Below are positions 11,436 to 32,254 of a stretch of 64,000 bases of DNA, in pieces (position 1 is the first letter of the stretch; every line of letters begins with the position of its first letter). The DNA lies in the NCBI GenBank assembly GCA_041653515.1, contig JBAZFG010000006.1:484-64483 (forward strand). The letters run 5' to 3'. The notes beneath the pieces are model-generated. The model had not been told where the DNA came from, did no database searches, and was given only the letters and a program-made list of their open reading frames with translations. The position numbers were made by a program, and so were the translations under genes. The DNA is from Candidatus Nanoarchaeia archaeon. GTDB taxonomy: Archaea; Nanobdellota; Nanobdellia; WJKC01.

Positions 11436-12782
11436 ATGGCACAAGGTGATTATGAAAAATTAATAAAGGATGGTTCCAAGACTACTCGCGTGCTCAAAAT
11501 GCTTTATGGCGCGGGCGATGCATTAGAGCCATTTTATTATCGTATTCTGTATGGCTTGCGCAATAATCGTTATTATAATACTATACTAAAAATAAATGAT
11601 ACTTATAATGTTAGCCCTAATACTCAGCAGTTTGGTTTCGCGACTAGTAATTTGCGTCAGGAAATAACTAGTGCGAGTGGTTTATTAGGTCAGATTGGTC
11701 AGATTGTTAAGAGTTTGGTCGCGATGAAAAAAGACCACCAGCGAATCAAAGAGTGTCTTGATTACTTTAAGGATAAAGGCCGACCTAACGAGTTAGTGCT
11801 TAAGGGTATCTGGGCTGATTTTGTTGACAGTAAGACTGGCCCGTCAAGCCTGACTCAGGCTGCGCAGAAACTAGAGTTCTTCGTGGCGCGCGACTGGTTC
11901 TTCAGGATTAATAGCGCTAAGGACGCGTTAGAATCAAAGGATATTACTAATGAGAATGTCAGGAATTTTTTGGCGCGCAAGTATAATGAATATGATAAGT
12001 GGAAAGAGCATTGGAAACCACGATTAGATGATATGGATAAGATTATTGAGCAACAAATAAAGACTACTCAGAATAGCATTAAGTTATACCGTGAGTGGGC
12101 TCAACCATTATTGCGTAACGTTGAAGCTTTAAAGATGTCACCTAACCCGACTAACCCTGATTTATTAAAGATTAGCGGCACTATTTACTCGCAAGTATCA
12201 ATTGTTGCTTGGGGTCGTCGCGAGCCAAAAGAAGCTAATTTAATCTTTGATTACGTGCCTGGTGATAAGAGTAAACCGCTAGGTGAGCGGGGTAAGTGCT
12301 TGTTTAAAGGTAAGGATGTGCCGTTCATGCCTGTTATTGAGATTACTATCACGCTCCGTTCAGGACCACAGGGTTACATGGAGACATTGGCTCATTATTT
12401 TAGCAAGGTTTACTCTAAAAAGGAGTTTGAGCGATTATACTATGAGGTCTGGAATAAGGACCCGGTTGATGATTGGATTAAGAATTTAATGCTTAATGAA
12501 GGGCTTAACTTGACTGATGAATCATTAAAAGAAGCAGTTAAGGAGAAACCAACTATTCTTGAAGCATTAGCTGATAAATTAATCCCTAAGTTTGATTTTA
12601 GTAAAACAATGGCGAAGGTTGGTTTAAATAAAAAGAAAACAGGTCCTAAACCCTTGCCTGAGCACGTGCTTGATGAATTAGTTGAGGGAGCAGGCGGTCA
12701 GGTCTTTAAGGACGTGGCTTACGTTTATTTTGTAGTTAAGAAGTCTTTTGGCATGCTCGCTGAGCTAGCAATGATAAGGTGA
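11436..12782 (+). CDS. hypothetical protein (448 aa), first gene of coupled three-gene cluster
   Basis: The long ORF is markedly GC-richer than the neighbouring island. No family recognised. Its last codons contain the SD for the next gene. Confidence 0.75.
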   Translation: MAQGDYEKLIKDGSKTTRVLKMLYGAGDALEPFYYRILYGLRNNRYYNTILKINDTYNVSPNTQQFGFATSNLRQEITSASGLLGQIGQIVKSLVAMKKDHQRIKECLDYFKDKGRPNELVLKGIWADFVDSKTGPSSLTQAAQKLEFFVARDWFFRINSAKDALESKDITNENVRNFLARKYNEYDKWKEHWKPRLDDMDKIIEQQIKTTQNSIKLYREWAQPLLRNVEALKMSPNPTNPDLLKISGTIYSQVSIVAWGRREPKEANLIFDYVPGDKSKPLGERGKCLFKGKDVPFMPVIEITITLRSGPQGYMETLAHYFSKVYSKKEFERLYYEVWNKDPVDDWIKNLMLNEGLNLTDESLKEAVKEKPTILEALADKLIPKFDFSKTMAKVGLNKKKTGPKPLPEHVLDELVEGAGGQVFKDVAYVYFVVKKSFGMLAELAMIR

Positions 12783-12790
12783 ATGAAATA

Positions 12791-14308
12791 ATGGTTGATG
12801 ATTGGCGTGAGTTTGGTGGTTATCGGATTGGGAGTAACATCCCTATTGGCCAGGGCGCTCCGTGGGAGAACGTTGCCCGCGTGTCCCGCTGGGGTGCGCC
12901 TGTCATTGAATTAAACACTAGTGCTGAGAAGCTGGGCAGTGTTGCTCGTAATGTTATTAAGGAGCAAGCTAAGGCTAATAATCTTGTTTACACTTGGCAC
13001 GTGCCCCCTGACCAGCGGGAGCATGGTGAGTGGGCTGCGCCTAATGACCCAAAACAAAATGAGTTCGCTCGCCAAGTAATGACTGAAACTATTAAGGCTG
13101 CTAAGGATACTGAGGCGCGTCACATTACTTTTCACCCAACGTTTGCACCCCGACCTGCTGAGGGCACAATGTATACTTATGATGCCCGAACTAAGCAAGT
13201 GGGTGGCCACCGGCTTATTGGAGATTTATCTAAGGAGGATAATATTCGGTTGTTGGATGAGCGCGCCAGAGCAGAGATTAACACTCAATTGAATCGCTTG
13301 GAGTCACAGCATAAAATGGTCTCTGATATGGAAGAGACTGCTAAGACTGTTAGGGAATTAGGGGTTAGTGATTCGGTTGCTTGGGATATGGCTTACCTTG
13401 TTGGTGAGTCCGCTGTTATGAGCTCAGCAGTTGGGTTGCAACCTGAGTCATTGTCGCGTGGCGAGTGGACGCGGATTCAGGAGAAAGCGGCTAGACGGCA
13501 ATCATTAAATGATGATGAGAAACAAGCAGTTAAGCAGTTTTCTGAAAAAGTCTTACATCAAGTGGGTGATTATAAGCGGTTGTTTAACTCGCAGATAGCT
13601 GAGCTTAAACCAATGACAAAGATTACTGGCCCTATTATCTCTGATGGTGAGGTTGCGATGAGGCAGAACGTGGCTGATAACCTGGCTGCAATGCCAAAGG
13701 AAGCGCTTAAGATGGCTGTTAATAATGGCATCTCACTTGGCATGGAAAACTTGCCAAAGGATTTCTTGTTTGGCACGCCTCAGGAATTAAATGATACTCG
13801 TGAGCGAGCAGTTAAGGCGTTGGTTGATTCGAAGAAGTTATCTAAAGCTGAGGCTGAGCAATTGATTGGTTTCACGTTTGATTTTGGTCACGCTAACACT
13901 ACTAAGTACTTGGATATTGATGGGGTTAAGTTTGCGGGACCAGCTGAATTCATTGACCAATTAAAAGGCCCGATTAAGCATGTTCACGCGACTGATAGTT
14001 TTGGTGTGGTTGATGGTCACTTACCGTTAGGCCAGGGCGAGGTGACTAAGCAGGAGTTTGATAAGATTAAGGAAGCGTTGAAGCGCAGTGGTTTTAAGGG
14101 CACGGCCATTCATGAGCTTGGGGCTAGTCAGAGCGGCGCGCTTTACCAAGCGACCATGCAGTTTGCAGAGCCAGGTGATTACATGGTTAATGGCTCGTCA
14201 ACGAGCAGTGTCTGGGGGCCTAGTTATGTTGAGGCGGGGATGACTGACCCGTTCATGTTGGAAAAAGATAAGGGGTATTTTTATGAATCATTTGCTGATG
14301 TTTTTTAA
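12791..14308 (+). CDS. xylose-isomerase-like / endonuclease IV-like TIM-barrel protein with large helical insertion
   Basis: Ordered metal-ligand-like motifs: VIELNT, TWHVP, ITFHP, then GMENLP, FDFGHAN, KHVHATD, DGHLPLG, IHELG. AAGGTGA (12777..12782) lies 8 nt upstream of ATG 12791. The track alternative start is GTG 12779. Confidence 0.7.
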   Translation: MVDDWREFGGYRIGSNIPIGQGAPWENVARVSRWGAPVIELNTSAEKLGSVARNVIKEQAKANNLVYTWHVPPDQREHGEWAAPNDPKQNEFARQVMTETIKAAKDTEARHITFHPTFAPRPAEGTMYTYDARTKQVGGHRLIGDLSKEDNIRLLDERARAEINTQLNRLESQHKMVSDMEETAKTVRELGVSDSVAWDMAYLVGESAVMSSAVGLQPESLSRGEWTRIQEKAARRQSLNDDEKQAVKQFSEKVLHQVGDYKRLFNSQIAELKPMTKITGPIISDGEVAMRQNVADNLAAMPKEALKMAVNNGISLGMENLPKDFLFGTPQELNDTRERAVKALVDSKKLSKAEAEQLIGFTFDFGHANTTKYLDIDGVKFAGPAEFIDQLKGPIKHVHATDSFGVVDGHLPLGQGEVTKQEFDKIKEALKRSGFKGTAIHELGASQSGALYQATMQFAEPGDYMVNGSSTSSVWGPSYVEAGMTDPFMLEKDKGYFYESFADVF

Positions 14309-14314
14309 AATTAT

Positions 14315-14322
14315 GGAGGTGA
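14315..14322 (+). promoter_or_regulatory. Shine-Dalgarno-like site (GGAGGTGA) for TTG start at 14327
   Basis: GGAGGTGA lies 4 nt upstream of TTG 14327. Confidence 0.6.
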
Positions 14323-14326
14323 TAAA

Positions 14327-15166
14327 TTGAAGAAGGAGCACTTGAGTACTTTGTCGCACTTAAAGGAGCGCATGGAGTTAATCAAGGAGAAGCCGGGTTT
14401 GCTTGATGAGAGTGATGTTAAACTGGTTTACTCTTTTGCTGGTAAGTTAGCTGGCAAGGAGTACCTTGGTGGCTTAGTGCAGGCAGTGGTCTTGTTTGGC
14501 AGTGTCATGAGGGATAAGCCATCTAGGGCTAATGACCTTGACGTCTTAGTCTTATTGGATGATGTTAGTAATGAGTTAACTAGTGAAATGGCGAGCGCTT
14601 ACAGCTTGTCGGTCGGCTCGTTGTTAGCTAAGCTTAATGCTCAGGAGAAGATTCACTTGACAACGTTAGGCATCATTCGTTTCTGGGATGGTGTTAGGAA
14701 CGGTGACCCAGTGATAATGAGTATTATTCGCTCGGGCAAGCCAATTGTTGATACTGGTTTCTTTAACCCGTTAAAGTCAATGCTTGAGAAGGGCATGATT
14801 AAGCCGACGCGCGAGGCAGTGGTCTCGCACTTGCGTTTAGCTGAGTCATTATTGCGTAACCAGCGTAATTATTATACTCGTTGCGTGGCTGACTTGTATT
14901 GGGCTGTGATGGACGCGGCTCACTCATTGATAATGCATGCCGGGCTTGAGCCAACTCACCCGCGCGATACACCAATTGTTTTCAGGCGGGCGGCGAAGCA
15001 GGTTGGGTTAAGCGTTCGACTGGCTTTAACAATTGAGTCTTTTGTTGGCATAATGAAGAACGTGTCGCATGGCAAGCAAAAAGAATTCACTGGCAAACAA
15101 GTTGACGCATTGAGAGTTAAGGCAGAGTCATTCGTTAAAGCAGTTAAGACAATTGTTGAAAAATAA
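14327..15166 (+). CDS. minimal nucleotidyltransferase (MNT) fused to HEPN-like helical domain
   Basis: NTase signature VVLFGSVMRDKPSRANDLDVLVLLDD (GS-x10-DxD). The C-terminal helical half (LRLAESLLRN...ADLYWAVMDAAHSLIMHAG) resembles a HEPN helical bundle. I saw no clear Rx4-6H motif. Confidence 0.7.
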   Translation: MKKEHLSTLSHLKERMELIKEKPGLLDESDVKLVYSFAGKLAGKEYLGGLVQAVVLFGSVMRDKPSRANDLDVLVLLDDVSNELTSEMASAYSLSVGSLLAKLNAQEKIHLTTLGIIRFWDGVRNGDPVIMSIIRSGKPIVDTGFFNPLKSMLEKGMIKPTREAVVSHLRLAESLLRNQRNYYTRCVADLYWAVMDAAHSLIMHAGLEPTHPRDTPIVFRRAAKQVGLSVRLALTIESFVGIMKNVSHGKQKEFTGKQVDALRVKAESFVKAVKTIVEK

Positions 15167-15190: not shown

Positions 15191-16438
15191 TTAAAATGTT
15201 ATATCACAGTTAGGTAGTGATTGTTTAATCCTGTTTTTTTCGTTCTGATCTAATTTATTATCACTTAACATTAATTTCTTAAGATTTGTTAGTTCTTCAA
15301 TACTATTTGGTAAACTGTTTAATTTATTGAAACTAGCATTTAACACTTCTAATTCTGTTAGTTCACTAATGTAATCTGGTAGTTCACTTAAGCAGGTTGC
15401 GCTGATGTTTAATCCTCTGAGTTTAGTTAAACCTTTTATATTTGGTAGCGTAACTAAATTATTGGAATCTATGTTTAATACTTCTATTTTACTAAGCTTG
15501 TTAATCTCTTCAGGTAAATCACTTAATTGATTCCAACTTAAATCTAATTCTTTTAGATTCTTTAATTTGTATATGCTTTTTGGTATTTTCTTAAATAAAT
15601 TTTCATTTAAGTTCAAAACTTCTAAATTGATTAGTTTTAGTATTGCAGAAGGTAATCTTGTTATATCATTCCCCCTTAAGGATAACACTTTTAAGTTTAT
15701 TAAATCCCCCAGTGTTGTTGGAATCATTATTTTACTTCTTTTACTTTTATCTAAATATAATCCTTCTAGATTTGTTAATTCGCCTATTTCTTCTGGTAAG
15801 TAATATAATTGGTTATAATTTAAATCTAAATACTTAAGTTTTTTTAGATTGTTTACATTTTGTGGTATTGATTCTAATTTATTAAACGTTAATTTTAACG
15901 TATTAAGACTTGTTATTTCATTTATTATTTTAGGATATTTTTTTAGAAAATTACTTGATAAATCTAATTCTTTTAACATTGTTAATCCTTTTATGCTATC
16001 CGGTAAATCTTTTAAAAAATTTCTATATAAACTTAATTTTCTTAATTCTGTTAAATCACTTATAACATCAGATAAAGAACTTAAGTTATATTCTAATTGT
16101 AATTCTATTATTCTCTCTTTTTCTATTACCAGTGAGGATTTAGAGCTAGGAACTAATCCATTATAGTAAGCATTTACGTTGTTATAATCATATAGTGGGA
16201 CATTAATTTTTTTAAGCGTTTCATAATCTTTTTCATATAACCAACCAAACCGTGTGTCAATTATTTTTTCTAATCTTATACCCAAATCTATTGATTCTTC
16301 TTTTTTCTTTAGGAAGTATGATTCTAATCCAAAAGGATTGATATAATTGTTGTAAGAACTTTTATTGTTAATTAATACTTTACTTGTATTCCCCTTTAGG
16401 AAATATCCATCTGGTTTAGATTGATTATTATCACTCAT
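15191..16438 (-). CDS. leucine-rich repeat (LRR) protein with unassigned roughly 110-aa N-terminal head
   Basis: About a dozen 23-aa repeats of the form LxxLxxLxLxxNxLxxLPxxIxxL (e.g. LKNLKELDLSWNQLSDLPEEINKL). The ATG directly abuts the TAA of the vWA gene (TAAATG). Confidence 0.85.
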   Translation of the reverse strand: MSDNNQSKPDGYFLKGNTSKVLINNKSSYNNYINPFGLESYFLKKKEESIDLGIRLEKIIDTRFGWLYEKDYETLKKINVPLYDYNNVNAYYNGLVPSSKSSLVIEKERIIELQLEYNLSSLSDVISDLTELRKLSLYRNFLKDLPDSIKGLTMLKELDLSSNFLKKYPKIINEITSLNTLKLTFNKLESIPQNVNNLKKLKYLDLNYNQLYYLPEEIGELTNLEGLYLDKSKRSKIMIPTTLGDLINLKVLSLRGNDITRLPSAILKLINLEVLNLNENLFKKIPKSIYKLKNLKELDLSWNQLSDLPEEINKLSKIEVLNIDSNNLVTLPNIKGLTKLRGLNISATCLSELPDYISELTELEVLNASFNKLNSLPNSIEELTNLKKLMLSDNKLDQNEKNRIKQSLPNCDITF

Positions 16439-18067
16439 TTAACTAAACCCCTTGAATTCTTTTTTGGCTAAGTCAATGATTAATCCTGATAGGTCATGCG
16501 CATTATTAACTTGATAAGTATTAAAACCATTATCCTGTAAATCTTTATTTGTGTTAGAATGATTATTGATGCTAATAAAATTAAAAGAGTAATTATTCAT
16601 TAATTTCATAAAATCAAATTTAATGTCTTTCCAATTAAGAATTACTCCATCACTAAGCATAATAACTGCACAATTATCTGATTCACTAAGTGATTCATTA
16701 AGAATGTCCATGTTAAGTTTTGTGTTGCCTGACTCAGGATTTAATAATAACTTTTTGGCATCAGTTAGTTTATCATAATAATTAAAACCTGATGTTTTAG
16801 TATTATCTGAGAATAAACAAATGTTGAATCTTGTATCATTAAGTAATTTAATTGATTCAAGATAATTAATCACGCCATAAAAACCTAATAATGCATAGTG
16901 ATAACCTGACTTATTGTTAACATCACAATTCCCCATTGAACCAGAATCATCAATGATAAAGTAAATGTCAGGGATGCCCTTAATTATTTTATTTTCAGTT
17001 AATTTAATTTCAATTGATCCTTTGTTGGTGCATGGGACAAGACAATCAAAATTACTGTTAAAACCAATCTTTGACATATTAAGCTTGCTAATAGCGTCAC
17101 CAGATTGATATGGTTTATAATTAATAGGTAAGCTTAATGATGAGTTTTTATTGTTTGATTTAGGGATTAATTCAATTTTATCAGCCATTAACCTGTAAAT
17201 ATTGTCTAAGTAAACTTCTCGCCCAAACTCTTCCATTAATTTATTGTTAAACCCCTTATCATTAAAATCCTTGAAGATTATTTCTCTAACACCATTAGAC
17301 GAACTTATTTTATTATCAAGTGACTTAGAACCAAATAATAATGGTTGTTTTTGATTAATTTCCTTATTGATTAATGGGCTAATTATATCAATGAATTTAT
17401 TAATAAGGTCTTTATTCCAGATTGTTTCTTTTAAGAAATTGTTTCCGTATTTACCATCAAATAATGATTTTAGTTTCTTAACAGTTTTATTAACTATTTC
17501 ATTATTATTATAAAAACCATTAATTAATTTTTTGTCATGTTTATCACCCCATAAAACAAGTGATAACTTCATGAAAGATTCATATAAATCAGTTAATTCA
17601 TTATTCTTGATGCATTGGTCATAAAAGAACATTGTTTGACCTGCATGATTAGAATAATTATTCCTAACAAATGAGTTAACAATAATGTCTTCAAACATAT
17701 TAGTAATATAAAAATTTATTTCATCATTATTAATACCCTTATTTGATAATGACTTGCTTGTTTTCTTTAATAATTCATGATGATTAAATAAATTTTGAGG
17801 GCAGGTCTCCCAGTGAACTGCTTCATGATAAAGCAAGTCTCTTGCAATAATGTAATCAAGACTTTTGGTTAATTTTTTCTTTTTATAATAATGGCTTAAG
17901 TGCTTGTCACTAATCTTTATTGAATTACCAAGTGATATAGTTATATCCCAACATTTATTGTTAATGCTAGCTTTATATTCTTCATCATTTTTTATTGTTA
18001 AATCACTAAATAAGCCTAGTCTATTCTTTTGTTTGTTAAGTAATCTTTTTTCCTCATGGGTTAACAT
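16439..18067 (-). CDS. HExxH (putative metallopeptidase) plus von Willebrand factor A (MIDAS) domain protein
   Basis: N-terminal LLYHEAVHWETCP (HExxH). C-terminal IYFIIDDSGSMG (DxSxS MIDAS) followed by a vWA-like beta-alpha pattern. Starts 3 nt after the MoxR stop, and GGAG lies within the MoxR 3' end. Confidence 0.75.
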   Translation of the reverse strand: MLTHEEKRLLNKQKNRLGLFSDLTIKNDEEYKASINNKCWDITISLGNSIKISDKHLSHYYKKKKLTKSLDYIIARDLLYHEAVHWETCPQNLFNHHELLKKTSKSLSNKGINNDEINFYITNMFEDIIVNSFVRNNYSNHAGQTMFFYDQCIKNNELTDLYESFMKLSLVLWGDKHDKKLINGFYNNNEIVNKTVKKLKSLFDGKYGNNFLKETIWNKDLINKFIDIISPLINKEINQKQPLLFGSKSLDNKISSSNGVREIIFKDFNDKGFNNKLMEEFGREVYLDNIYRLMADKIELIPKSNNKNSSLSLPINYKPYQSGDAISKLNMSKIGFNSNFDCLVPCTNKGSIEIKLTENKIIKGIPDIYFIIDDSGSMGNCDVNNKSGYHYALLGFYGVINYLESIKLLNDTRFNICLFSDNTKTSGFNYYDKLTDAKKLLLNPESGNTKLNMDILNESLSESDNCAVIMLSDGVILNWKDIKFDFMKLMNNYSFNFISINNHSNTNKDLQDNGFNTYQVNNAHDLSGLIIDLAKKEFKGFS

Positions 18068-18070
18068 TTT

Positions 18071-19249
18071 TTAATACTCCATTAATTGGTTTATGAATTT
18101 TAATCGTCCGTTAAAAACTATGTTACTTCCTTTTATTGTTTCATTAATTTTTGCTTCGTTATCAATTAATTCTTTTTTGATACAATTAAGTATTGAATTA
18201 CTGGCTTCGTATGGGTTACCATGAAATCGGGATTTAATTGAATTATTGTTAATAATCCCACAGTAAGGAGTTATTAATTTTAGTATTTCAAAAAAATCAT
18301 TTAATGCGTCAATAGTGCCTAATTCATATTTAGCGCCTGTTTTTTTTTCATAAACTTGTATGAATGCGGGGTATATGTCTTGATAAACATGTTTTATTCG
18401 TGGGTTTGATTCTTTAGTCATAGTGCAAAACCCTCCTAAATCATTACATCCTTCACAGTCTTTTGGTATATTAATATTTTTTTTGCTAGTATCCTCTTTA
18501 TTACAGTAACCAAGGCCGTGGATTAAGTATTGTGTAGCTATTAATTCAGCGTTAGTATTCTTGATGTAATCATCATTACTAATAAATGATTTATTATCTG
18601 CCCATTCTTTTAGAATGTTTTCTGATAAATCATTTTTATCACCATTAATTCTTTTTAATAATATTTGAGTAGTGTCTTTTGGTGTTGGTTTGAAGTAATC
18701 CATGTTAATTATTATTTGAAACCGATTAAGTAAGGCTTCATCAGTGCCAAACGTGCCAGTGTAATCTCCATTGTTAGGGTTAGCTGCTGCAATGATTATA
18801 TGATACCCATCTTTACCTAAAGGTATTGTTTGTCCCTTAAAATTATAATAACCATCCATAATATTAAATAAATCATTTTGGATTATTTCTGGTGCACGAT
18901 TACATTCATCAATAAATGTGATTAATTTCTTAGTTATTTCATTATTTATTGATATTACTTCTTTGGCTTTTGGGTGGAATTCTTCATAAACATCTTTTAG
19001 GCTGGTATCCTTGTTCATTCTTAAACTATTCATTTTGTTATTGAAGAATGATTTGCCCACACTTTGCGCTAATGTTGTTTTGCCTAAACCTGTTCCGCCA
19101 AGCAATAATATGTTTGATTTTGATATTAAACTTATTTTTATTAAATCTGATAAATCCATTGGTTCACCACCGAAAGTAATAACTTTTGAAGTGTTATAAT
19201 AACCAATTAAGTTTGTGTTATAAACCGATATTTGGTTTTCATTGCTCAT
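18071..19249 (-). CDS. MoxR-like AAA+ ATPase with C-terminal Cys-cluster extension
   Basis: Walker A LLLGGTGLGKTT, Walker B/MoxR box FIDECNRAPEIIQNDLFNIMDG, sensor-1 HIIIAAANP. The C-terminal extension carries C-x15-C-x2-C-x6-C. Confidence 0.8.
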   Translation of the reverse strand: MSNENQISVYNTNLIGYYNTSKVITFGGEPMDLSDLIKISLISKSNILLLGGTGLGKTTLAQSVGKSFFNNKMNSLRMNKDTSLKDVYEEFHPKAKEVISINNEITKKLITFIDECNRAPEIIQNDLFNIMDGYYNFKGQTIPLGKDGYHIIIAAANPNNGDYTGTFGTDEALLNRFQIIINMDYFKPTPKDTTQILLKRINGDKNDLSENILKEWADNKSFISNDDYIKNTNAELIATQYLIHGLGYCNKEDTSKKNINIPKDCEGCNDLGGFCTMTKESNPRIKHVYQDIYPAFIQVYEKKTGAKYELGTIDALNDFFEILKLITPYCGIINNNSIKSRFHGNPYEASNSILNCIKKELIDNEAKINETIKGSNIVFNGRLKFINQLMEY

Positions 19250-19273
19250 GGAATAATTGATTTAGTTGTCTCT

Positions 19274-19281
19274 TTTATAAA
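19274..19281 (-). promoter_or_regulatory. TATA box for MoxR-vWA-LRR operon
   Basis: tttataaa is centred about 28 nt upstream of ATG 19249. Confidence 0.55.
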
Positions 19282-19337: not shown

Positions 19338-19991
19338 TTATGCTTGTATTCTTTGTACGCCTAGGTCAACGTCCATTCTTGGGTCGTAATGTAATCTTGA
19401 TTCTAGTCCTTCGTTAGTCTCAGCTAGTTTGTCGGCCATTTCTTTTCTTTCATCGTAGCTTAAGTCGCTGATGATTGATTCCATGCCGTAAGCTGCCGGG
19501 ATTATTGACATGTTAATTCCTCTGGCGTCAGTGAACGGGCCGTAGCGCCTGACTAACGGCAGTCCCCTAATCATGCTGATTAAGTCATTTTTCTCTTTTT
19601 TATTAAGCGTGCCATTAAAACCAACTAAGTCGATTGTTTGTTCTTCAGCTTCTGTTGCCTCGAATAATTCAGGGCACTCTGCTCTGTACTTGAATATTAC
19701 TGGCGCTATGTCGCCGCCAACGCTTATTAGTTTTTTCATTAATGCTTTCTTCTTGTCATTAAGTTTTGAGTAATCAACTGATTGCACTAAGTCATTCTTA
19801 CAGACACTGGTTAAGTGGGTTGCGTAATTACTTATTTGTTCTGGTTTGATGTAACTGCTCATGAAGTTTAACGCACCCATTATTGCTTTGCCTGTTGAGC
19901 TATTCTTGTAATCATTAAGTGTTTGATGGCTTGTCGCGCTATTAACTGAATAACTTGCTCCTGGTTGCTTGACTCCTACTTCAACTGGCAT
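19338..19991 (-). CDS. hypothetical protein (217 aa)
   Basis: ORF track. Overlaps the upstream gene by 11 nt. No motif recognised. Confidence 0.6.
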   Translation of the reverse strand: MPVEVGVKQPGASYSVNSATSHQTLNDYKNSSTGKAIMGALNFMSSYIKPEQISNYATHLTSVCKNDLVQSVDYSKLNDKKKALMKKLISVGGDIAPVIFKYRAECPELFEATEAEEQTIDLVGFNGTLNKKEKNDLISMIRGLPLVRRYGPFTDARGINMSIIPAAYGMESIISDLSYDERKEMADKLAETNEGLESRLHYDPRMDVDLGVQRIQA

Positions 19992-20904
19992 CTTCTTTCA
20001 CCTCGTAGTTTATCATGCCATATAATAGTTTGCCCCAGCCTTGTGTTCTTGTTTTCTCAGCTTCTTTTGGGTGTAAGCCGTGGGTCATGGCTAGTAAAGC
20101 AGTGTATGTTTCCTCGCCGTTCATCTTCTCTAATTCTTTGTGGTCATCGTAAGAGTCATCTAGTAGTGTTTTCATAACGTTCTTAACGTCATTGTCATTC
20201 ATGGTCTTACGGGTTTTGTTCATGTCTGTTTGGTATTCTTTTGACTTGATTACTCCTTCCAGGCCGCCGTTTTTTAGTTTGTCAACAGCTATTACAGCGG
20301 TTACTTCTTTTGCTTTACCGTTTAACTCTTTGGCATCACCAATCTTGCCTTCAAGGCTTTTTAAGTATGGGCTGTTGCTGATTAAGCCCATGTCAAATAA
20401 TTTTTCTTTGATAATATAATGTGCAAGCGATTGTTCAGTGGCTAATTCAATATTTGATTCCTGACCTTGCTTTTTTAATTGGTCGTTTAATCGGTAACCG
20501 TCAAAGACTGCTCCGTAAAAACCCCTGAATAATGATAAAGCTGAGTAAGTGCCCTGTTTAGGTGCAGTCGGGGCTGGTTTAGCTGCGCTTGGCGCAGCAG
20601 TTTTAGCTGCTGTTGCAGGGTTGGCTGGAGTGCTTGGCACTGCTGGCTTTGAAGCAGGCTTGGCCTCGCTTGGCGCGTTTATTTCAGGCGCTTCTGGAAT
20701 ATCAGTTGGCTTAACATCAGGGCTTTCAGGGAGCTGACACTTTTTTAGTAAATCTGTTTTGTCTTTAGCTTCTTTTTCTAATTTTGCCTGTTTATTTGAA
20801 AGATTGTTTAATTCACTTTTTTTATTGCTTAAATCATTATTAATATCAGTGATATAATCAGATAATTCAGTTACTTTAGCATTAATATCACCAGCACCTA
20901 TCAT
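19981..20904 (-). CDS. hypothetical protein: N-terminal coiled coil, Pro/Ala-rich linker, unassigned C-terminal domain
   Basis: Track start is GTG 20910; ATG 20904 is preferred because TATA-like ttataaata lies about 25-30 nt upstream. Linker sequence: PTDIPEAPEINAPSEAKPASKPAVPSTPANPATAAKTAAPSAAKPAPTAP. Confidence 0.65.
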   Translation of the reverse strand: MIGAGDINAKVTELSDYITDINNDLSNKKSELNNLSNKQAKLEKEAKDKTDLLKKCQLPESPDVKPTDIPEAPEINAPSEAKPASKPAVPSTPANPATAAKTAAPSAAKPAPTAPKQGTYSALSLFRGFYGAVFDGYRLNDQLKKQGQESNIELATEQSLAHYIIKEKLFDMGLISNSPYLKSLEGKIGDAKELNGKAKEVTAVIAVDKLKNGGLEGVIKSKEYQTDMNKTRKTMNDNDVKNVMKTLLDDSYDDHKELEKMNGEETYTALLAMTHGLHPKEAEKTRTQGWGKLLYGMINYEVKEDAS

Positions 20905-20939
20905 AGTCACTACTTATCAGTGACTATTTATAAGGCTTT

Positions 20940-21968
20940 CTATGGTTTGTAAAGTGGCAATACAAGCGCTTTATTCTTATTTTGGAGTAAGTTGTATTGT
21001 TTTTCTTTTTCTTTGCCACTATTAGGGTCTAAGTAAATTACTTTGTCGTTCTTAACTCCTTTTACCATAACAAAGTGATTTTCATTAAGGTACATTATTG
21101 GTGGTAACGCTTTATCATCCTTAACCGCTTTCATATACATCTTTAGTTCATCCAAATCCATTTTCCTTGCAAAGAATTTTTTGTCATCACTTTCATTTTC
21201 GTTTATTTTGATTCCAGTAATATCATTCAATAAATTAATCAAATCAAAAGTATCCTTCCATTCATAAGTATAATCAAGTAATGAGTCGCAAACCTTTTTA
21301 TTGGTTGTTTTATTTATCTCATATAACTTGTTGGCTAAACTGAATTCCTCATCAAATGAATCATTTGGTTTTGTTTTATATTTGGCTAAATAATCCGCTT
21401 TTCCATCATCAATTATTTCTTCATTAGTTAATGGTATTTTAATACCTAAATAATCAAGTATCATTCTTGTGCAAGTCAAACCGCACGCCCCAACCCCACT
21501 CCACTCCTTGCCTTTTAGCCCATCAATGATTATTTCATCAGCTGATTCTTTTGATAATAATCCATTCTGGATTAATATTTTATCAATGGTGTTAATATAA
21601 TCTGTTAGTGTAACTATATTATTTTTTAACACAGCAACCTTGCTGTCATATTCAGCCATAGAATTATTGTAGGATTCTTCAATGCCTGTTTTGATTTCAT
21701 TAATTGTTCCAATCAGGTTGGCATATAATTGCCCGCTAGTTGCAGGTAATTTACTTAATTTATCATTAAAATCTTTAATTCTTGCCTCAAGGTCAGTGAC
21801 TGCTTCACCTTTTTCATATGAATTATCTAAGCCTTGTATTTTAACATTGAACTCATTAAACTTGGTTTCTAAACCAGTTAATTGGTCTAAAAAACTGTTT
21901 AATTCAGTAGCATTATCACTAAAGTTCTCTTTCTCCTTCTGTAATTCTGCATTATAATCAACTGCCAT
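20940..21968 (-). CDS. coiled-coil protein with C-terminal C39-like (papain-fold) cysteine peptidase domain
   Basis: Catalytic-type motifs GVGACGLTCTRMILDYLG (Cys) and NENHFVMVKGVKNDKVIYLDPNSG (His...Asp) match the layout of bacteriocin-processing C39 peptidases. The N-terminal roughly 140 aa is heptad-rich. Confidence 0.65.
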   Translation of the reverse strand: MAVDYNAELQKEKENFSDNATELNSFLDQLTGLETKFNEFNVKIQGLDNSYEKGEAVTDLEARIKDFNDKLSKLPATSGQLYANLIGTINEIKTGIEESYNNSMAEYDSKVAVLKNNIVTLTDYINTIDKILIQNGLLSKESADEIIIDGLKGKEWSGVGACGLTCTRMILDYLGIKIPLTNEEIIDDGKADYLAKYKTKPNDSFDEEFSLANKLYEINKTTNKKVCDSLLDYTYEWKDTFDLINLLNDITGIKINENESDDKKFFARKMDLDELKMYMKAVKDDKALPPIMYLNENHFVMVKGVKNDKVIYLDPNSGKEKEKQYNLLQNKNKALVLPLYKP

Positions 21969-21993
21969 GATTAAATTATAGCTATCAGTTCTT

Positions 21994-22001
21994 TTTATAA
22001 A
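21994..22001 (-). promoter_or_regulatory. TATA box for C39-like peptidase gene
   Basis: tttataaa lies in the 38-nt spacer, centred about 30 nt upstream of ATG 21968. Confidence 0.5.
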
Positions 22002-22006
22002 GATTT

Positions 22007-23032
22007 TTATTTAATTTTTATTAACCCCAAATCAATTAATTTCTTAAGATTATCAAGAAACTTTTTAACTTCTTTAGCATGGGACAAAAAATTATCATCA
22101 AATTTATTGATTTTTGATAATAAATTTACGTCTATATTAATGCCTGTTATATTGAAAAGGTTAATACAGTTGTTGATACTTTCTTTTTGGATTGCATTAA
22201 CATAACCTATTTGTACATCAATATTATTAATGACAGGCTTAACTCCTGAGATTTTTTTTAAGTACTCTATCCTGCCCACTTGGCAGCGCCTTATTGTTTC
22301 TGAATAGAATTCTTGTGAGAACTGATTAATTCGGTTGAAATTAACCTGTTCTATAAAACCCGAATTATTAATATTATCTTCGCAACCAAATAAAAAATCA
22401 TTAAGGTAATGATAAGCCCTTTTTTGATTATTACTAAATAAAGGACTGGCTTCCTCAAGAACCTCAAAATTCTTTAATAACTGGTCTAACCTTAGATTAA
22501 TTATGTCATCACTGCACCATGATTTGTCATTAATTGTCACAAGTCGATTAATTAATTGCTGATATAACTTGTTATCAAAAAATTCAACTGGAGAGTCATT
22601 ACCTACTGCAAGATCGTTTAAGTAATTATTAATAAATAATAAGGCGCTATCCCTGCTGGAAAACTTAATTATTTTGCTGTCTATCGTTGAGTAATCACTG
22701 CCATCTAACATAACTGCTTTATGAACACAATGAGGTAGTTTTGGCAGTATCAATAATTTGTCCTCGTCATATTTATACATATAAGCGTACACAGTAAAAT
22801 AATCATCATTTGCGTCAATAGCAAAACCAGACTCAATCTGCTTACCTTCATTAAATAAATGAGGAACTGGGCATAATAAGTAATCAATGTTGTTAAAAGA
22901 ATTTATTCTAAGAAAATAATCCTTCATTGAACAAACTTCTTTGTTAATGATTGTTTTACCATTGGGTACAAAGTAATTAATAAGCTCTGGTTTGATTTTT
23001 TTGATTAGTTTATTTAGAAATGATTTGCTCAT
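22007..23032 (-). CDS. hypothetical protein (341 aa)
   Basis: ORF track. Overlaps the upstream 729-aa gene by 4 nt. No motif recognised. Confidence 0.6.
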   Translation of the reverse strand: MSKSFLNKLIKKIKPELINYFVPNGKTIINKEVCSMKDYFLRINSFNNIDYLLCPVPHLFNEGKQIESGFAIDANDDYFTVYAYMYKYDEDKLLILPKLPHCVHKAVMLDGSDYSTIDSKIIKFSSRDSALLFINNYLNDLAVGNDSPVEFFDNKLYQQLINRLVTINDKSWCSDDIINLRLDQLLKNFEVLEEASPLFSNNQKRAYHYLNDFLFGCEDNINNSGFIEQVNFNRINQFSQEFYSETIRRCQVGRIEYLKKISGVKPVINNIDVQIGYVNAIQKESINNCINLFNITGINIDVNLLSKINKFDDNFLSHAKEVKKFLDNLKKLIDLGLIKIK

Positions 23033-25218
23033 TTTTTGTATTGGATGATTCCCTTAGCAATTGATTCACTTATATTTTTGTTAAGTTCATCTAATTCACT
23101 ATTCCATTTGTCAAAATCATCTTTAATCGCAGTTAGATTGGCTTTTTTGATAAGTTTTATGTCCTTAACATAATCTTCATTTAGCTTATGGTAAGTATCA
23201 ATTAATTTTTGTTTAGACGAATCATTAACGCTAATATTCTGCACTTTCTCATAAGTGCTGTTTGTGTTGACAAAACCATCATCAATGTCTAATGACTTAA
23301 CTTCAGTTGTATTAAGATTGTTATACAATTCATCCCTTTCAGCTATCTTATCTGCAAGCTCTTTTTTAGCTTCGTTAAGCATTGAATCATAATCAGGCGT
23401 TACAGTTGTGCCCGGCACGCTGTTGCTTGTCAGTAAGTTAGCGTAAATATTATCAATATCTGCTGTTTGATTTAGTTTCAGTTTCTTGAAGCTAATGATT
23501 TTGCCATTGTCTTTTTCAACATAACTAGCGCCCTTATTGAAGAAGCTTTCTAAGTTATTATCAATAATATAATTGCTTAATTCCTCTAATGAAATCTTAA
23601 CGCTTGTGTTATCAAAATTAATTGTGTAAGCACTAACAACATTAATTGCAGTTGTCTTAGCGTCACTAAGTAATGTCTTTAACGCAACAGCGTTATTATC
23701 ATCAAGCAAATCACGTAATGAAGTTACCATGCCACTATTTTGCTCAGCACTATTTATAAAGTTTTCCACATCCTTAGCTGGGATTTTGAGTTTTTTGGCA
23801 AAGTACTCAATAGCATCCTCTTCATTACAATTAACAGACTCTGAGTACACAAGTAATTGCTTGTTCTTCTTAACAAAATCGTTAATAGCATTTAACTTTT
23901 GGTCAATAGTAGCATCTTTAGCCAAGCTTTTCTTGATTTGGCCAGCATAAATAGGCATAATATCCCCGAAGTGCTTGTAAAATAATTTCTTCTCCAACTC
24001 AACAATCTGCGCCTCACTAAAGCCCTGCAAGTTATTAGTTAAGTAATCCTTGAGCCCTGCCGCGCCTTCTTTTAATAGTTTTAATCGGGCGTCAAGAACC
24101 ACGCCGCCAACCTCTGCGGTCTTACTTAATTCATCCTCAGAGTAATTGCCCTGATAACTAACTGAATTAACAATAATGCTGTGAACTACTTCCCTGAAAT
24201 CCTTGCCGTCATTAATGTTATTCATTAATAGGTTCCAGCGCTGGCGGATTGTATCTAAAGTCTTAATGTTTTCCTCAGCGTTATTGCCTAAGAGCAACCG
24301 CTCAAGCGTGTCAGTAACGTAAATATCAGTTTTAAGCAATTCATTAAACTTATCAATAGTCCCCATGAGCTTGGCGTACTCTGGGTTACTATTATCACCA
24401 AACATTACTTTTCTATACTCATCAGGGGTTATGTTCAATAAGTGATTAAACTTCATTAAATCACTATACACGACCCGCTCAACATCATCAAAAACGTTGC
24501 TAAGGAAATCACTGCTAACACCATTAACAACGTAATTATCAAGAGTAAGCCCGTTCTGTTCAGCAAGAATTTTTAACTCAGGCGTTAAATTTTTCTCAGA
24601 AACAGCTTTAAGCAAGTTTATATCTGGGTTATTCATATCAATAAACCTTGAAAGCGCTTGCCAGCCAGCATCACTTAACTGCTTTTCCTCACTCATCTTA
24701 ATTCCTTCAAGTTCAGTGTTTAAATCATTTACTATGTCACTAGCGGAGTTAATTATGTTGATAATGTTAGGGTTGTCTGATAATTGCAGGCCATTGGTTT
24801 GCCTGATCTCATAGCCATTATCAATTATTTCATTAACTGGCATGCCCTTGATTAATTCAATTAAGTTATTATAATTAAATTTAGGGTCATTTGATAATTC
24901 AAAACCATTCTTCTCTTTTAGTATTGGCTCTTCAGGGATTGCTTTAATTGAGTAATCACCCCTGAACTTTAGGTTTGCCCCGCAGATGTCATTAATAAAA
25001 TCTACCTGCTCTTTAGTTAGAGAAACATCCTCTTCAGGGTCTTTGTCAACTAACCGAATATTTTTTTCATTATTTCCATTTTTAAGCTTTTCATTAACTT
25101 CTTTCTCGGTCTTTGAAAGGCTGTAAATTGATTCAATTAATGGGGAGTAATCTAGCTGGCCCTCACCAAGTTTAGCCCCTATTGTATACAAATATTTTAA
25201 TAGGTCCACTATTTTCAT
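23029..25218 (-). CDS. large hypothetical protein (729 aa), no TM or signal peptide seen
   Basis: Long uninterrupted ORF. Helical, Asn/Asp/Lys-rich, with a coiled-coil C-terminus. No family recognised. Confidence 0.7.
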   Translation of the reverse strand: MKIVDLLKYLYTIGAKLGEGQLDYSPLIESIYSLSKTEKEVNEKLKNGNNEKNIRLVDKDPEEDVSLTKEQVDFINDICGANLKFRGDYSIKAIPEEPILKEKNGFELSNDPKFNYNNLIELIKGMPVNEIIDNGYEIRQTNGLQLSDNPNIINIINSASDIVNDLNTELEGIKMSEEKQLSDAGWQALSRFIDMNNPDINLLKAVSEKNLTPELKILAEQNGLTLDNYVVNGVSSDFLSNVFDDVERVVYSDLMKFNHLLNITPDEYRKVMFGDNSNPEYAKLMGTIDKFNELLKTDIYVTDTLERLLLGNNAEENIKTLDTIRQRWNLLMNNINDGKDFREVVHSIIVNSVSYQGNYSEDELSKTAEVGGVVLDARLKLLKEGAAGLKDYLTNNLQGFSEAQIVELEKKLFYKHFGDIMPIYAGQIKKSLAKDATIDQKLNAINDFVKKNKQLLVYSESVNCNEEDAIEYFAKKLKIPAKDVENFINSAEQNSGMVTSLRDLLDDNNAVALKTLLSDAKTTAINVVSAYTINFDNTSVKISLEELSNYIIDNNLESFFNKGASYVEKDNGKIISFKKLKLNQTADIDNIYANLLTSNSVPGTTVTPDYDSMLNEAKKELADKIAERDELYNNLNTTEVKSLDIDDGFVNTNSTYEKVQNISVNDSSKQKLIDTYHKLNEDYVKDIKLIKKANLTAIKDDFDKWNSELDELNKNISESIAKGIIQYKK

Positions 25219-32096: not shown

Positions 32097-32254
32097 TGAG
32101 CCCGACGGGATTCGAACCCACGACCTACTGGTATCACCATCCACCAGTGTTTGACCACCAGCCTCGTTCTTTAATTGCTCTCGAACGGGACGCTTCAATT
32201 ACGAAGCGCTGGATGTAAGAGCCAGTCGCTCTAACCAGACTGAGCTACGGGCCC
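32097..32254 (-). tRNA. tRNA-Lys (anticodon CUU) with about 83-nt intron at the canonical 37/38 position
   Basis: Exon 1 (32254..32216): GGGCCCG TA GCTC AGTCTGGTTA GAGC G ACTGG CTCTTA. Exon 2 (32132..32097): A CCAGT AGGTC GTGGG TTCGAAT CCCGT CGGGCTC A. The anticodon stem ACTGG/CCAGT forms only after removing 32133..32215. Confidence 0.8.

What the first reader, a model, noticed from the sequence alone, without database searches (positions are those of the whole stretch)
15191..19281. MoxR-type AAA+ / HExxH-vWA / LRR three-gene operon: candidate NTP-driven sensor-effector module
Seen in sequence:
- Three minus-strand genes are driven from one TATA box (19274-19281) and packed with 3-nt and 0-nt stop/start spacers (TAAATG at 16436-16441), so co-translation is likely.
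- Gene 1 has MoxR-like AAA+ motifs (GGTGLGKT, FIDECNRAPEIIQNDLFNIMDG, IIIAAANP). It also has a C-terminal extension carrying C-x15-C-x2-C-x6-C, a possible Zn module that I do not associate with housekeeping MoxR proteins.
- Gene 2 combines an N-terminal HExxH (YHEAVHWE) with a C-terminal vWA MIDAS (IIDDSGSMG).
- Gene 3 is about a dozen 23-aa LRRs behind an unassigned 110-aa head.
- The genes are extremely AT-rich: my counts give 9/60 G+C at 15901-15960 and 13/60 at 18601-18660, against 30/60 at 13021-13080 in the adjacent cluster.

Established knowledge: MoxR-vWA pairs act as ATP-driven remodelling or maturation pairs (RavA-ViaA, CbbQ-CbbO, NorQ-NorD). Comparative genomics has also proposed vWA-MoxR modules as cores of NTP-dependent conflict systems. 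LRRs are classic ligand or non-self sensors.

Inference: an LRR sensor coupled to an ATPase and a metallopeptidase/vWA effector, sitting in a compositionally foreign island of a small archaeal genome, looks like an uncharacterised defence or host-interaction system rather than an enzyme-maturation pair. No candidate substrate enzyme is adjacent.
Basis: partly seen in the sequence, partly recalled or inferred. Interest (0 to 1): 0.82.

Follow-up and report, generated by a model that had tools for sequence, protein, structure and literature searches.

The report
Archaeal ATPase–vWA pair with LRR add-on
Two of the three genes form a conserved ATPase plus metal-binding partner module that, in over a hundred related tiny archaea, sits among hypermutating binding-protein genes, whereas the third (leucine-rich-repeat) gene is a one-off addition found only in this genome.

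Summary
The sequence observation is confirmed. Three tightly packed minus-strand genes (392, 542 and 415 aa) carry the stated motifs and are among the four most AT-rich ORFs in the window.

g1 (AAA_5/AAA_3 ATPase with a 4-Cys insert) and g2 (N-terminal HExxH domain plus C-terminal MIDAS-complete vWA) are a real, co-evolving pair. An exhaustive HMMER scan found 410 g2 relatives. I retrieved 123 related loci, mostly from DPANN archaea.

In those loci the pair does not flank a substrate enzyme. It usually sits inside diversity-generating retroelement (DGR) cassettes: AAA+ / variable protein / HExxH-vWA / variable protein / template repeat plus reverse transcriptase. The adenine-specific TR/VR mismatch signature is present.

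The window's pair belongs to a side clade that keeps the Cys cluster and has no DGR. The window has no reverse transcriptase and no variable-protein gene.

The LRR gene is not co-conserved (0 of 123 loci) and has no orthologue among 5.8 billion clustered proteins. It occupies the slot that relatives fill with variable proteins or P-loop kinases.

The HExxH domain matches no Pfam or PDB peptidase family, and PADLOC finds nothing. A defence role is untested.

Verdict: a new variant of the MoxR–vWA kind, with a lineage-specific LRR partner.

The parts
19274..19281 (-). TATA-like octamer (TTTATAAA) 25-32 nt upstream of the g1 ATG, in the 88-nt spacer after the preceding gene; candidate promoter of a leaderless transcript
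   Evidence: Sequence read. The motif frequency in the window is near chance (20 observed, about 14 expected from my own base-composition estimate), so support is positional only.
18071..19249 (-). g1: 392-aa MoxR-like AAA+ ATPase (AAA_5/AAA_3) with a C-terminal extension
   Evidence: Pfam AAA_5 7.8e-10 and AAA_3 3.6e-8, both above gathering. AAA_5 matches 27/29 family members. K57, E115, N157 and R176 are invariant in 29 homologues; T58 and D114 are in 28/29. The closest relative, P0003, is 64% identical and named MoxR family ATPase by NCBI.
19076..19099 (-). Walker A GGTGLGKT (res 51-58) of g1
18905..18910 (-). Walker B D114-E115 of g1
18425..18505 (-). 4-Cys cluster C249-x15-C265-x2-C268-x6-C275 of g1 (candidate Zn module)
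   Evidence: All four Cys are conserved in P0003 while other Cys are not. The cluster is kept in the clade holding the window, L002, L025, L032, the bacterial pairs, L034 and L041, although bacterial members lack a Cys at the C268-aligned column and carry one two residues later. It is replaced (C265 to V/L/I, C268 to H, C275 to E/A/V) in the main DGR-linked clade.
16439..18067 (-). g2: 542-aa protein with an N-terminal HExxH helical domain, a beta linker and a C-terminal vWA/MIDAS domain
   Evidence: Family of 410 HMMER hits. AF2 model pLDDT 88. The C-terminal domain matches integrin I-domains and vWA with TM 0.6-0.69.
17813..17827 (-). HEAVH (H81, E82, H85) motif of g2, inside predicted helix 70-87
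   Evidence: H81 and H85 are invariant and E82 is nearly invariant in the 42-sequence alignment. 115/126 N-domains carry HExxH. Helix assignment.
17687..17701 (-). NMFED (N123...D127) motif of g2 on the following long helix; D127 is invariant and is a candidate third metal ligand
16448..16984 (-). vWA domain of g2 with a complete MIDAS (D373-x-S375-x-S377, T449, D473)
   Evidence: D373, S375, T449 and D473 are invariant and S377 is nearly invariant. Foldseek vs PDB. Pfam VWA matches 8/42 family members.
15191..16438 (-). g3: 415-aa LRR protein (orphan head of about 110 aa, then about 12-13 LRRs of 23 aa). It starts at the g2 stop (TAAATG) and is lineage-specific.
   Evidence: LRR_14 4.2e-34 and LRR_8 5.7e-31. 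69-nt DNA periodicity. No orthologue with the head domain. 0/123 related loci have an LRR gene.

Best explanation
g1 and g2 are a two-gene machine: a MoxR-like AAA+ ATPase, and a partner that combines an N-terminal HExxH (zincin-like) metal site with a C-terminal MIDAS-complete vWA domain. They belong to a family centred on DPANN archaea.

In most relatives the pair is embedded in diversity-generating retroelement (DGR) cassettes. There it is flanked on both sides by hypervariable binding-protein genes that share an N-terminal peptide. The window's copy belongs to a DGR-less side clade that keeps a 4-Cys insert in the ATPase. It was probably acquired, together with the LRR gene, from a more AT-rich donor.

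Most likely mechanism (inferred):
- The vWA MIDAS captures an acidic residue of a partner protein.
- The AAA+ ring supplies ATP-driven remodelling.
- The HExxH domain cleaves or gates that partner.
- The module therefore acts on, or is triggered through, an operon-encoded ligand-binding protein.

In this genome the co-transcribed, cytoplasmic LRR protein is the candidate partner. It fills the slot that relatives fill with DGR variable proteins or P-loop kinases.

Shown here: the domain content, the conserved catalytic and MIDAS residues, pair conservation and co-evolution, DGR linkage in relatives, and the uniqueness of the LRR gene.

Inferred only: peptidase activity, which protein is the client, and the biological role (host interaction versus defence).
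For: - Domains and motifs.
- Family size: 410 hits, 249 at E<=1e-10.
- Pair conservation: AAA+ is present in 39 of 42 loci of at least 9 kb.
- Co-evolution: NJ trees of the AAA+ and the vWA domain both group the window and its relative with L025/L032(/L035) and the bacterial pairs, apart from the main DGR clade.
- DGR linkage: RT homologues occur in 41 loci. TR/VR mismatches fall almost only at template adenines (25/25, 14/14, 13/13 and similar).
- Slot occupancy: a variable protein sits directly downstream of the vWA gene in 52/76 loci and directly upstream in 52/80.
- Variable proteins in one locus share identical N-terminal peptides, and three leader classes track three vWA clades.
- Window copy: the 0-nt and 3-nt junctions and the shared very low GC of g1-g3 fit one transcription and transfer unit. 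The relative's pair has the GC of its own flank.
- None of the three proteins, and none of 46 variable proteins, has a TM-like segment.
- No substrate enzyme is adjacent.
Against: - The LRR gene has no co-conservation (0/123 loci).
- The LRR protein lacks the N-terminal peptide shared by the variable proteins. An HMM of that peptide does not place g3 among the ten best-scoring window ORFs (best hit elsewhere, E 0.12).
- A second LRR ORF lies elsewhere in the window, so LRR proteins are not specific to this module.
- The HExxH domain has no detectable relationship to any peptidase family, and 2/42 members have HAxxH.
- The Foldseek PDB output listed only vWA hits, so a zincin fold is not demonstrated.
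- The AAA+ profile scores ClpC/Hsp104 D2 as well as MoxR 2R44.
- The gene downstream of the only close relative's vWA gene could not be seen.
Confidence: 0.5

Rival explanations
1. The LRR adjacency is incidental. g1-g2 is a self-contained AAA+/HExxH-vWA pair acting on unlinked clients, and g3 is an unrelated LRR gene that landed, or was co-transferred, next to it.
For: - 0/123 related loci carry an LRR gene.
- g3 has no orthologue with its head domain.
- g3 lacks the variable-protein leader motif.
- Another LRR ORF lies next to a ribosomal protein gene elsewhere in the window.
- In the nearest clade the downstream slot holds unrelated dNK-like kinases.
Against: - The stop and start abut with a 0-nt spacer (TAAATG) on the same strand.
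- g3 shares the extreme low GC of g1-g2, and the three are among the four lowest-GC ORFs in the window.
- In relatives the same slot is overwhelmingly occupied by a binding protein that is clearly part of the system.
Confidence: 0.3
2. One reading: an NTP-dependent conflict (defence) system of the vWA-MoxR ternary type. The LRR protein senses a viral or foreign ligand, the ATPase transduces the signal, and the HExxH peptidase is the effector.
For: - A MoxR+vWA core is present.
- Published ternary systems pair this core with variable third components and, in cyanobacteria and Gammaproteobacteria, with DGR-diversified sensor domains (PMC7159879, PMC10907252).
- Relatives here are DGR-linked.
- All components are predicted cytoplasmic, as expected for intracellular sensing.
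- The island is compositionally foreign.
Against: - PADLOC finds nothing.
- bpMoxR scores below gathering, 20.8 against 27 bits.
- No VMAP, iSTAND or beta-propeller component was found.
- Domain order is reversed: the vWA is C-terminal and the constant HExxH is N-terminal, rather than an N-terminal vWA followed by variable effectors (PMC7159879).
- No toxin-type effector is present.
Confidence: 0.15
3. A housekeeping chaperone or chelatase-like maturation pair (CobS/CobT-, CbbQ/O- or NorQ/D-like) that inserts a metal into, or remodels, an enzyme encoded elsewhere.
For: - The best PHROG for g1 is the CobS-like family phrog_249, at 3.7e-11.
- The best viral fold matches of g2 are full-length phage VWFA/CobT-like proteins.
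- Bacterial homologous pairs sit among housekeeping-looking genes.
Against: - No substrate enzyme is adjacent in the window.
- Archaeal relatives are linked to DGR variable proteins, not enzymes.
- The phage matches have rmsd of 20-30 A and TM of 0.2-0.3. hhalign to phage P23-45 P23p50 aligns only 79 vWA columns, and that protein has no HExxH.
- The patchy distribution and foreign composition do not fit a core housekeeping function.
Confidence: 0.07

Closest known systems
DGR cassettes of DPANN archaea (Nanoarchaeota, Pacearchaeota, Woesearchaeota; Paul et al. 2015, PMC4372165; Handa et al. 2016, PMC5006420)
   Same: The nearest full-length relatives of g2, and their g1-like partners, lie inside such cassettes. 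One locus (L009) comes from SCGC AAA011-G17, a genome analysed in PMC4372165. RT, TR/VR pairs and adenine-specific mismatches are present.
   Different: The window has no RT, no TR/VR and no variable-protein gene. Its pair belongs to a DGR-less clade that keeps the Cys cluster. The papers I could read do not mention the AAA+/vWA genes. Paul et al. 2017 was not available.
vWA-MoxR ternary conflict systems (Kaur, Burroughs, Iyer, Aravind 2020, PMC7159879) and DGR-diversified MoxR systems (Dore et al. 2024, PMC10907252)
   Same: A MoxR-like ATPase plus a vWA protein plus a variable third component. There is frequent linkage to DGR-diversified ligand-binding domains and a proposed sensor-transducer-effector logic.
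   Different: There is no VMAP, iSTAND or beta-propeller component. bpMoxR scores below threshold. The vWA is C-terminal, behind a constant HExxH domain. In relatives the binding proteins are separate genes rather than fusions to the vWA. The family is archaeal (DPANN) rather than from multicellular bacteria.
MoxR-vWA maturation pairs (CbbQ-CbbO, NorQ-NorD, RavA-ViaA; established knowledge, not tested here)
   Same: An AAA_5/AAA_3-type ATPase is encoded next to a MIDAS-containing vWA partner. The expected logic is ATP-driven remodelling of a client held by the MIDAS.
   Different: No substrate enzyme is linked. The partner carries a conserved HExxH domain. The clients suggested by synteny are binding proteins.
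DUF2201_N / DUF2201 (PF13203 / PF09967) putative metallopeptidase plus vWA-like proteins
   Same: The same overall architecture as recalled: an N-terminal HExxH domain and a C-terminal vWA-like domain, usually next to a MoxR ATPase. The partnering with MoxR is from memory.
   Different: Neither Pfam model matches g2, 42 full-length family members or 24 N-domains, even at E<=10. g2 is therefore not a detectable member.
Phage AAA+ / vWA (CobS/CobT-like) pairs, e.g. Thermus phage P23-45 P23p51/P23p50
   Same: The same gene order (AAA+ then a vWA protein of about 560 aa with a helical N-terminal region). g1 hits the phage CobS-like PHROG, and g2's model aligns full-length to phage VWFA/CobT-like models.
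   Different: There is no sequence-level match. P23p50 has no HExxH. The profile alignment is limited to 79 vWA columns at 63% probability. The structural alignments have very high rmsd.

Membership tests
MoxR-like AAA+ (Pfam AAA_5 / AAA_3) | Match to the family model above the curated threshold | tested here: met
   AAA_5 39.3 bits (cut-off 22) and AAA_3 33.8 bits (cut-off 27). AAA_5 matches 27/29 family members.
MoxR-like AAA+ (Pfam AAA_5 / AAA_3) | Intact Walker A, Walker B, sensor-1 Asn and Arg finger | tested here: met
   K57, E115, N157 and R176 are invariant in 29 homologues; T58 and D114 are in 28/29.
MoxR-like AAA+ (Pfam AAA_5 / AAA_3) | Closest solved structures are MoxR-clade proteins | tested here: inconclusive
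   In the profile search, ClpC/Hsp104 D2 scores 5e-7 and MoxR 2R44 scores 4e-6. 2R44 gives the longest aligned stretch.
MoxR-like AAA+ (Pfam AAA_5 / AAA_3) | Encoded next to a vWA/MIDAS partner | tested here: met
   Adjacent in the window. AAA+ is present in 39/42 long loci. The AAA+ and vWA trees agree on the window's clade.
vWA / MIDAS domain | DxSxS...T...D metal-ion-dependent adhesion site | tested here: met
   D373, S375, T449 and D473 are invariant and S377 is nearly invariant in 42 sequences.
vWA / MIDAS domain | Rossmann-like vWA fold | tested here: met
   AF2 pLDDT 88. Foldseek matches integrin I-domains with TM 0.60-0.69 and E about 1e-5.
vWA / MIDAS domain | Pfam VWA above the gathering score on g2 itself | tested here: not met
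   15.9 bits against a cut-off of 23.8. 8/42 relatives match at E<=0.01, best 2e-7.
DUF2201_N/DUF2201-type metallopeptidase-vWA | Match to PF13203 or PF09967 | tested here: not met
   Neither model appears (E<=1; 42 members) or 73 (24 N-domains, E<=10).
Zincin metallopeptidase | Conserved HExxH on a helix, plus a downstream third ligand | tested here: inconclusive
   HExxH is in 115/126 N-domains, inside helix 70-87. D127 is invariant and C89 nearly invariant, and both are candidate ligands. I could not inspect the geometry.
Zincin metallopeptidase | Detectable homology or fold match to a known peptidase family | tested here: not met
   No significant Pfam or PDB sequence hit. The top 50 Foldseek PDB hits are all vWA. 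The N-domain could not be searched on its own.
vWA-MoxR ternary conflict systems (VMAP / iSTAND / beta-propeller) | Third defining component (VMAP, iSTAND NTPase or beta-propeller protein) | tested here: not met
   g3 is an LRR protein. Neighbours show no such domains. PADLOC finds nothing.
vWA-MoxR ternary conflict systems (VMAP / iSTAND / beta-propeller) | bpMoxR-type ATPase model | tested here: not met
   PF20030 scores 20.8 bits, below the cut-off of 27. It matches 5/29 relatives at E<=1e-3.
Diversity-generating retroelement cassette | Reverse transcriptase plus a TR/VR pair with adenine-specific mismatches | tested here: not met
   In the window, tblastn with the RT gives nothing better than E 6.7, and the variable-protein HMM gives no hit. 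The feature is met in relatives.
Leucine-rich repeat proteins | Tandem LxxLxLxxNxL repeats matching the LRR models | tested here: met
   LRR_14 4.2e-34, LRR_8 5.7e-31 and LRR_4 5.8e-29. 69-nt DNA periodicity.

The most novel reading that the evidence does not exclude
The DPANN AAA+/HExxH-vWA pair may be a dedicated, ATP-driven, protease-coupled handling or activation machine for cytoplasmic ligand-binding receptor proteins. Most lineages feed it DGR-hypermutated proteins tagged with a shared N-terminal peptide. On this reading the window captures a natural receptor swap, in which a repeat-based LRR protein replaces the hypermutating one. The same engine would then serve two unrelated receptor scaffolds, loosely paralleling Ig versus VLR receptors in vertebrates. 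That would give a first mechanistic handle on what archaeal DGR variable proteins do.
Probability: 0.15. Interest if true: 0.85.

Novelty: new variant of a known kind. Interest (0 to 1): 0.55.

Why it matters
MoxR-vWA pairs are known, but three things here are not in the literature I could read.

2. The pair is systematically embedded between DGR variable-protein genes in DPANN archaea. [quoted passage not shown]
3. This genome shows a DGR-less version with an LRR protein in the variable-protein slot.

What DGR variable proteins do in ultra-small symbiotic archaea is an open question. A conserved ATPase/metalloprotease-like/vWA partner makes that question testable through interaction, cleavage of the shared leader peptide, and ATP dependence.

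The window's own trio is a single-genome variant. Its direct weight is therefore modest.

Tried and rejected
1. I thought g3's N-terminus (SKPDGYFLKGNTSKVL / INPFGLESYFLKKKEES) resembled the variable proteins' shared leader (IPDxFxGKxxxGxxExxL). An HMM of 33 leaders does not place g3 among the ten best-scoring window ORFs, and the best hit anywhere in the window is E 0.12. Rejected.

2. I tried to retrieve the 107,675-bp contig of the only close relative (MFA5406297.1 / MFA5406298.1) to see its downstream gene. The exact-protein look-up failed, or gave only a 3.2-kb fragment. Genome and metagenome scans with the two-sequence alignment found nothing.

3. AF2 with only two sequences gave pLDDT 36 and was unusable. 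The 42-sequence alignment fixed this.

4. Sequence and profile searches of the HExxH domain against Pfam and PDB returned only noise.

5. PADLOC and NCBIfam gave no informative family for g2.

6. tblastn of g1 and g2 against 50,697 phage records gave no match. No relatives were found on IMG/VR viral contigs. A viral-cargo reading is therefore not supported.

7. hhalign of the family against phage P23-45 P23p50 gave only a weak, partial vWA match.

8. A variable-protein profile against PDB gave no hit, including to the solved archaeal variable protein. Their C-type-lectin fold is therefore assumed from the literature and not shown here.

9. I searched for flanking direct or inverted repeats marking an insertion around 15.1-19.4 kb. 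Only LRR-internal and low-complexity AT-rich matches appeared.

10. The search for related loci with the 42-sequence alignment failed because no conserved stretch was found. An 11-sequence sub-alignment solved this.

Full report
**Observation.** The three minus-strand ORFs exist exactly as described: g1 at 18071-19249 (392 aa), g2 at 16439-18067 (542 aa) and g3 at 15191-16438 (415 aa). The junctions read TAA-AAA-ATG and TAAATG. All quoted motifs are present. GC is 28.8% (g1), 26.3% (g2) and 24.4% (g3), so the three are among the four lowest of 58 ORFs (mean 36.2%, sd 4.8). The adjacent plus-strand cluster is 46-47% GC. The TTTATAAA box lies 25-32 nt upstream of the g1 ATG. That octamer occurs 20 times in the window against about 14 expected from my own base-composition estimate, so only its position supports a promoter. 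The window is archaeal: it has an intron-containing tRNA, and the closest relatives are Candidatus Nanoarchaeia.

**Domain assignments.**
- g1 matches AAA_5 (7.8e-10) and AAA_3 (3.6e-8), both above gathering. bpMoxR is below threshold.
- g3 is a strong LRR protein, with LRR_14 at 4e-34.
- g2 alone gives only a sub-threshold VWA hit and no peptidase family.
- PADLOC and NCBIfam add nothing for g2.
- None of the three proteins has a TM-like or signal-like hydrophobic segment.

**Relatives.**
- Word-based searches found one relative each for g2 (P0002, 56% identity) and g1 (P0003, 64%). They are adjacent genes of one Nanoarchaeia MAG, MFA5406298.1 and MFA5406297.1.
- The four Cys of the g1 extension are conserved in P0003 while other Cys are not.
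- On a 3.2-kb fragment, the relative's upstream neighbour is a 182-aa ORF that looks TFIIB-like by eye (not tested). This differs from the window.
- An exhaustive HMMER scan then showed that g2 belongs to a sizeable family: 410 hits, 249 at E<=1e-10.
- In a 42-sequence alignment H81, H85, P90, D127, D373, S375, T449 and D473 are invariant. E82, C89, N123 and S377 are nearly so. Both the HExxH site and a complete MIDAS are therefore under selection.
- 126 of the top 150 representatives contain the N-domain, and 115 of those have HExxH.
- With this alignment AF2 gives a confident model (pLDDT 88, pTM 0.77). It has a three-stranded sheet, a helical domain with HExxH on helix 70-87 and NxFED on helix 115-137, a beta linker and a Rossmann-like C-terminal domain.
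- Foldseek against PDB matches the C-terminal domain to integrin I-domains and vWA (TM 0.60-0.69).
- The N-domain has no significant Pfam or PDB sequence relative. In particular it does not match DUF2201_N.

**Gene neighbourhoods.** Scans of GTDB genomes and JGI metagenomes gave 42 and 80 related loci. With the 3.2-kb fragment of the close relative (L002), that makes 123 loci. They are mostly Woese-, Pace- and Nanoarchaeota. A few are labelled Methanosarcinales or Micrarchaeota. Several bacterial loci (Aerophobetes, Clostridia) match only the vWA part. No relatives were found on viral contigs.

My ORF maps show a recurrent operon: AAA+ / one to five genes of 230-290 aa / HExxH-vWA / one or two more such genes / often a gene of 350-420 aa.
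- The small genes form one homologous cluster, 80 of 128 neighbours.
- Within a locus they share near-identical N-terminal peptides.
- They end in a ...G.VAGF.A.SGRA.L.C...P..S...LGVR motif.
- The larger gene is a reverse transcriptase (RVT_1 2.9e-19). Homologues occur in 41 loci.
- The RT-proximal repeat differs from the repeats at the 3' ends of the small genes almost only where the template has adenine: 25/25, 14/15, 11/11, 14/14, 13/13 and similar.

These are therefore DGR cassettes, and the small genes are DGR variable proteins.

Census figures:
- Among 42 loci of at least 9 kb, AAA+ is present in 39, variable proteins in 31 and RT in 28.
- The gene directly downstream of the vWA gene is a variable protein in 52/76 loci. 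The gene directly upstream is one in 52/80.
- No LRR gene occurs in any locus, by phmmer with g3 or by a motif screen.
- g3's best database hits cover only its LRR part at 39-40% identity.

**Where the window's pair sits.**
- The AAA+ alignment splits in two. The window, its relative, L025, L032, L034, L041 and the bacterial pairs keep a Cys cluster. The bacterial members lack a Cys at the C268-aligned column and carry one two residues later (CKQxNC).
- The main DGR-linked clade has replaced the cluster: C265 to V/L/I, C268 to H, C275 to E/A/V.
- NJ trees of the AAA+ and of the vWA domain both place the window and its relative with L025/L032(/L035) and the bacterial pairs, outside the main DGR clade. 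This agreement supports co-evolution of the two proteins.
- In the window's clade the two genes are natively adjacent. In L032 they are separated only by an opposite-strand 369-aa ORF that looks TnpB-like by eye (not tested).
- There is no RT in that clade. The downstream slot holds dNK/AAA_28-like P-loop kinases in L025, L032 and L035.
- The window itself has no RT and no variable-protein-like gene.
- The relative's pair has the GC of its flank (36-37% against 37.7%), whereas the window's trio is about 10 points below its genome. I infer recent acquisition of g1-g3 as a unit from a more AT-rich donor. No insertion scars were found.

**Mechanism.**
- Shown here: an AAA_5-type ATPase with intact catalytic residues; a partner with a conserved HExxH site and a complete MIDAS; pair conservation and co-evolution; and linkage in relatives to hypervariable binding proteins that carry a common N-terminal peptide. 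Three classes of that peptide track three vWA clades.
- Inferred from established knowledge of MoxR-vWA pairs (CbbQ/O, NorQ/D, Rea1 MIDAS): the MIDAS holds an acidic residue of a client and the AAA+ ring remodels it. The HExxH domain plausibly cleaves or gates the client.
- The synteny points to operon-encoded binding proteins as clients or triggers.
- In the window the LRR protein occupies that slot and is probably co-transcribed. However, it lacks the leader motif and is unique to this genome. A second LRR ORF also lies elsewhere in the window. I therefore put g3's involvement at roughly 40%.
- Whether the role is host interaction or defence cannot be decided. All components look cytoplasmic, which fits intracellular sensing. 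No defence family or toxin-type effector is detected.

**Comparison with known systems.**
- Published vWA-MoxR ternary systems and DGR-diversified MoxR systems share the logic (PMC7159879, PMC10907252). Their defining third components and domain order are not met here.
- The DPANN DGR papers I could read do not mention ATPase or vWA genes.
- Paul et al. 2017 was not available, so prior description of the association cannot be excluded.
- Phage AAA+/vWA (CobS/CobT-like) pairs are architectural look-alikes only.
- The AAA+ profile scores ClpC/Hsp104 D2 and MoxR 2R44 similarly. MoxR-clade membership therefore rests on the Pfam models and the vWA pairing.

**Verdict.** The LRR gene is a lineage-specific addition whose functional coupling is plausible but unproven.

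Noticed in passing
L003-L124 (e.g. L018 6099-11944; L021 6087-11926): There is a DPANN-wide DGR cassette layout: AAA+ / variable protein / HExxH-vWA / variable protein / TR + RT. Variable proteins within one locus share an identical N-terminal peptide of about 22 aa (L021 7276-7399 equals 9692-9815, 124 nt at 100%). Three leader classes track three vWA clades. No variable protein has a TM or signal-like segment.
   Followed up: partly
window 30315-30887 (-): A second, shorter LRR ORF (190 aa; LRR_4 6e-17; E 9e-17 to g3) lies directly next to the ribosomal protein S8e gene (30894-31391). LRR proteins are therefore not confined to the AT-rich island.
   Followed up: partly
window 19338-25218 (-): Five same-strand orphan genes lie upstream of g1 (729, 341, 342, 309 and 217 aa). 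The 342-aa protein combines a coiled-coil-like N-terminus with a Peptidase_C39-like domain (1.5e-9). The 309-aa protein has a Pro/Ala-rich low-complexity centre. Nothing else matches Pfam or PHROGs, and none is conserved next to the relative's pair.
   Followed up: partly
window 12779-15166 (+) and about 35000-37000: These are GC-rich patches (46-49% against a 36% mean). The first holds a 509-aa AP_endonuc_2/xylose-isomerase-like TIM-barrel protein and a 279-aa nucleotidyltransferase. It converges on g3 with only a 24-nt T-rich spacer.
   Followed up: no
window 32097-32254 (-): Rfam calls a 158-nt tRNA, implying an intron of about 85 nt, which ARAGORN did not report.
   Followed up: no
L032 6452-7561 (-): A 369-aa ORF that looks TnpB/IS605-OrfB-like by eye (not tested) is inserted on the opposite strand between the AAA+ and HExxH-vWA genes of a Nanoarchaeota MAG.
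   Followed up: no
L030, L033, L036-L039: Bacterial (Aerophobetes, Clostridia) homologous AAA+/vWA pairs keep a Cys cluster but lack the HExxH domain (vWA proteins of 367-385 aa). Neighbouring ORFs look radical-SAM-, YebC- and TldD/PmbA-like by eye (not tested).
   Followed up: no
L025 9668-10282; L032 9629-10824; L035 1199-2499: In the archaeal loci closest to the window's pair, one or two dNK/AAA_28-like P-loop kinase genes directly follow the vWA gene, in the slot where the window has the LRR gene.
   Followed up: partly
L023, L024, L042, L043: Contigs binned as Methanosarcinales carry the cassette with a distinct leader (MTPKNPFADPEHPIDYNIRGKDV) and up to seven variable-protein paralogues (L043). 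This is either transfer between DPANN and methanogens or mis-binning.
   Followed up: no
L125 27112-29624 (Thermus phage P23-45): The phage encodes a small AAA+ (P23p51, annotated as chaperone/Lon) immediately upstream of a 563-aa vWA protein (P23p50). This is the same order as g1-g2, but P23p50 has no HExxH motif.
   Followed up: yes
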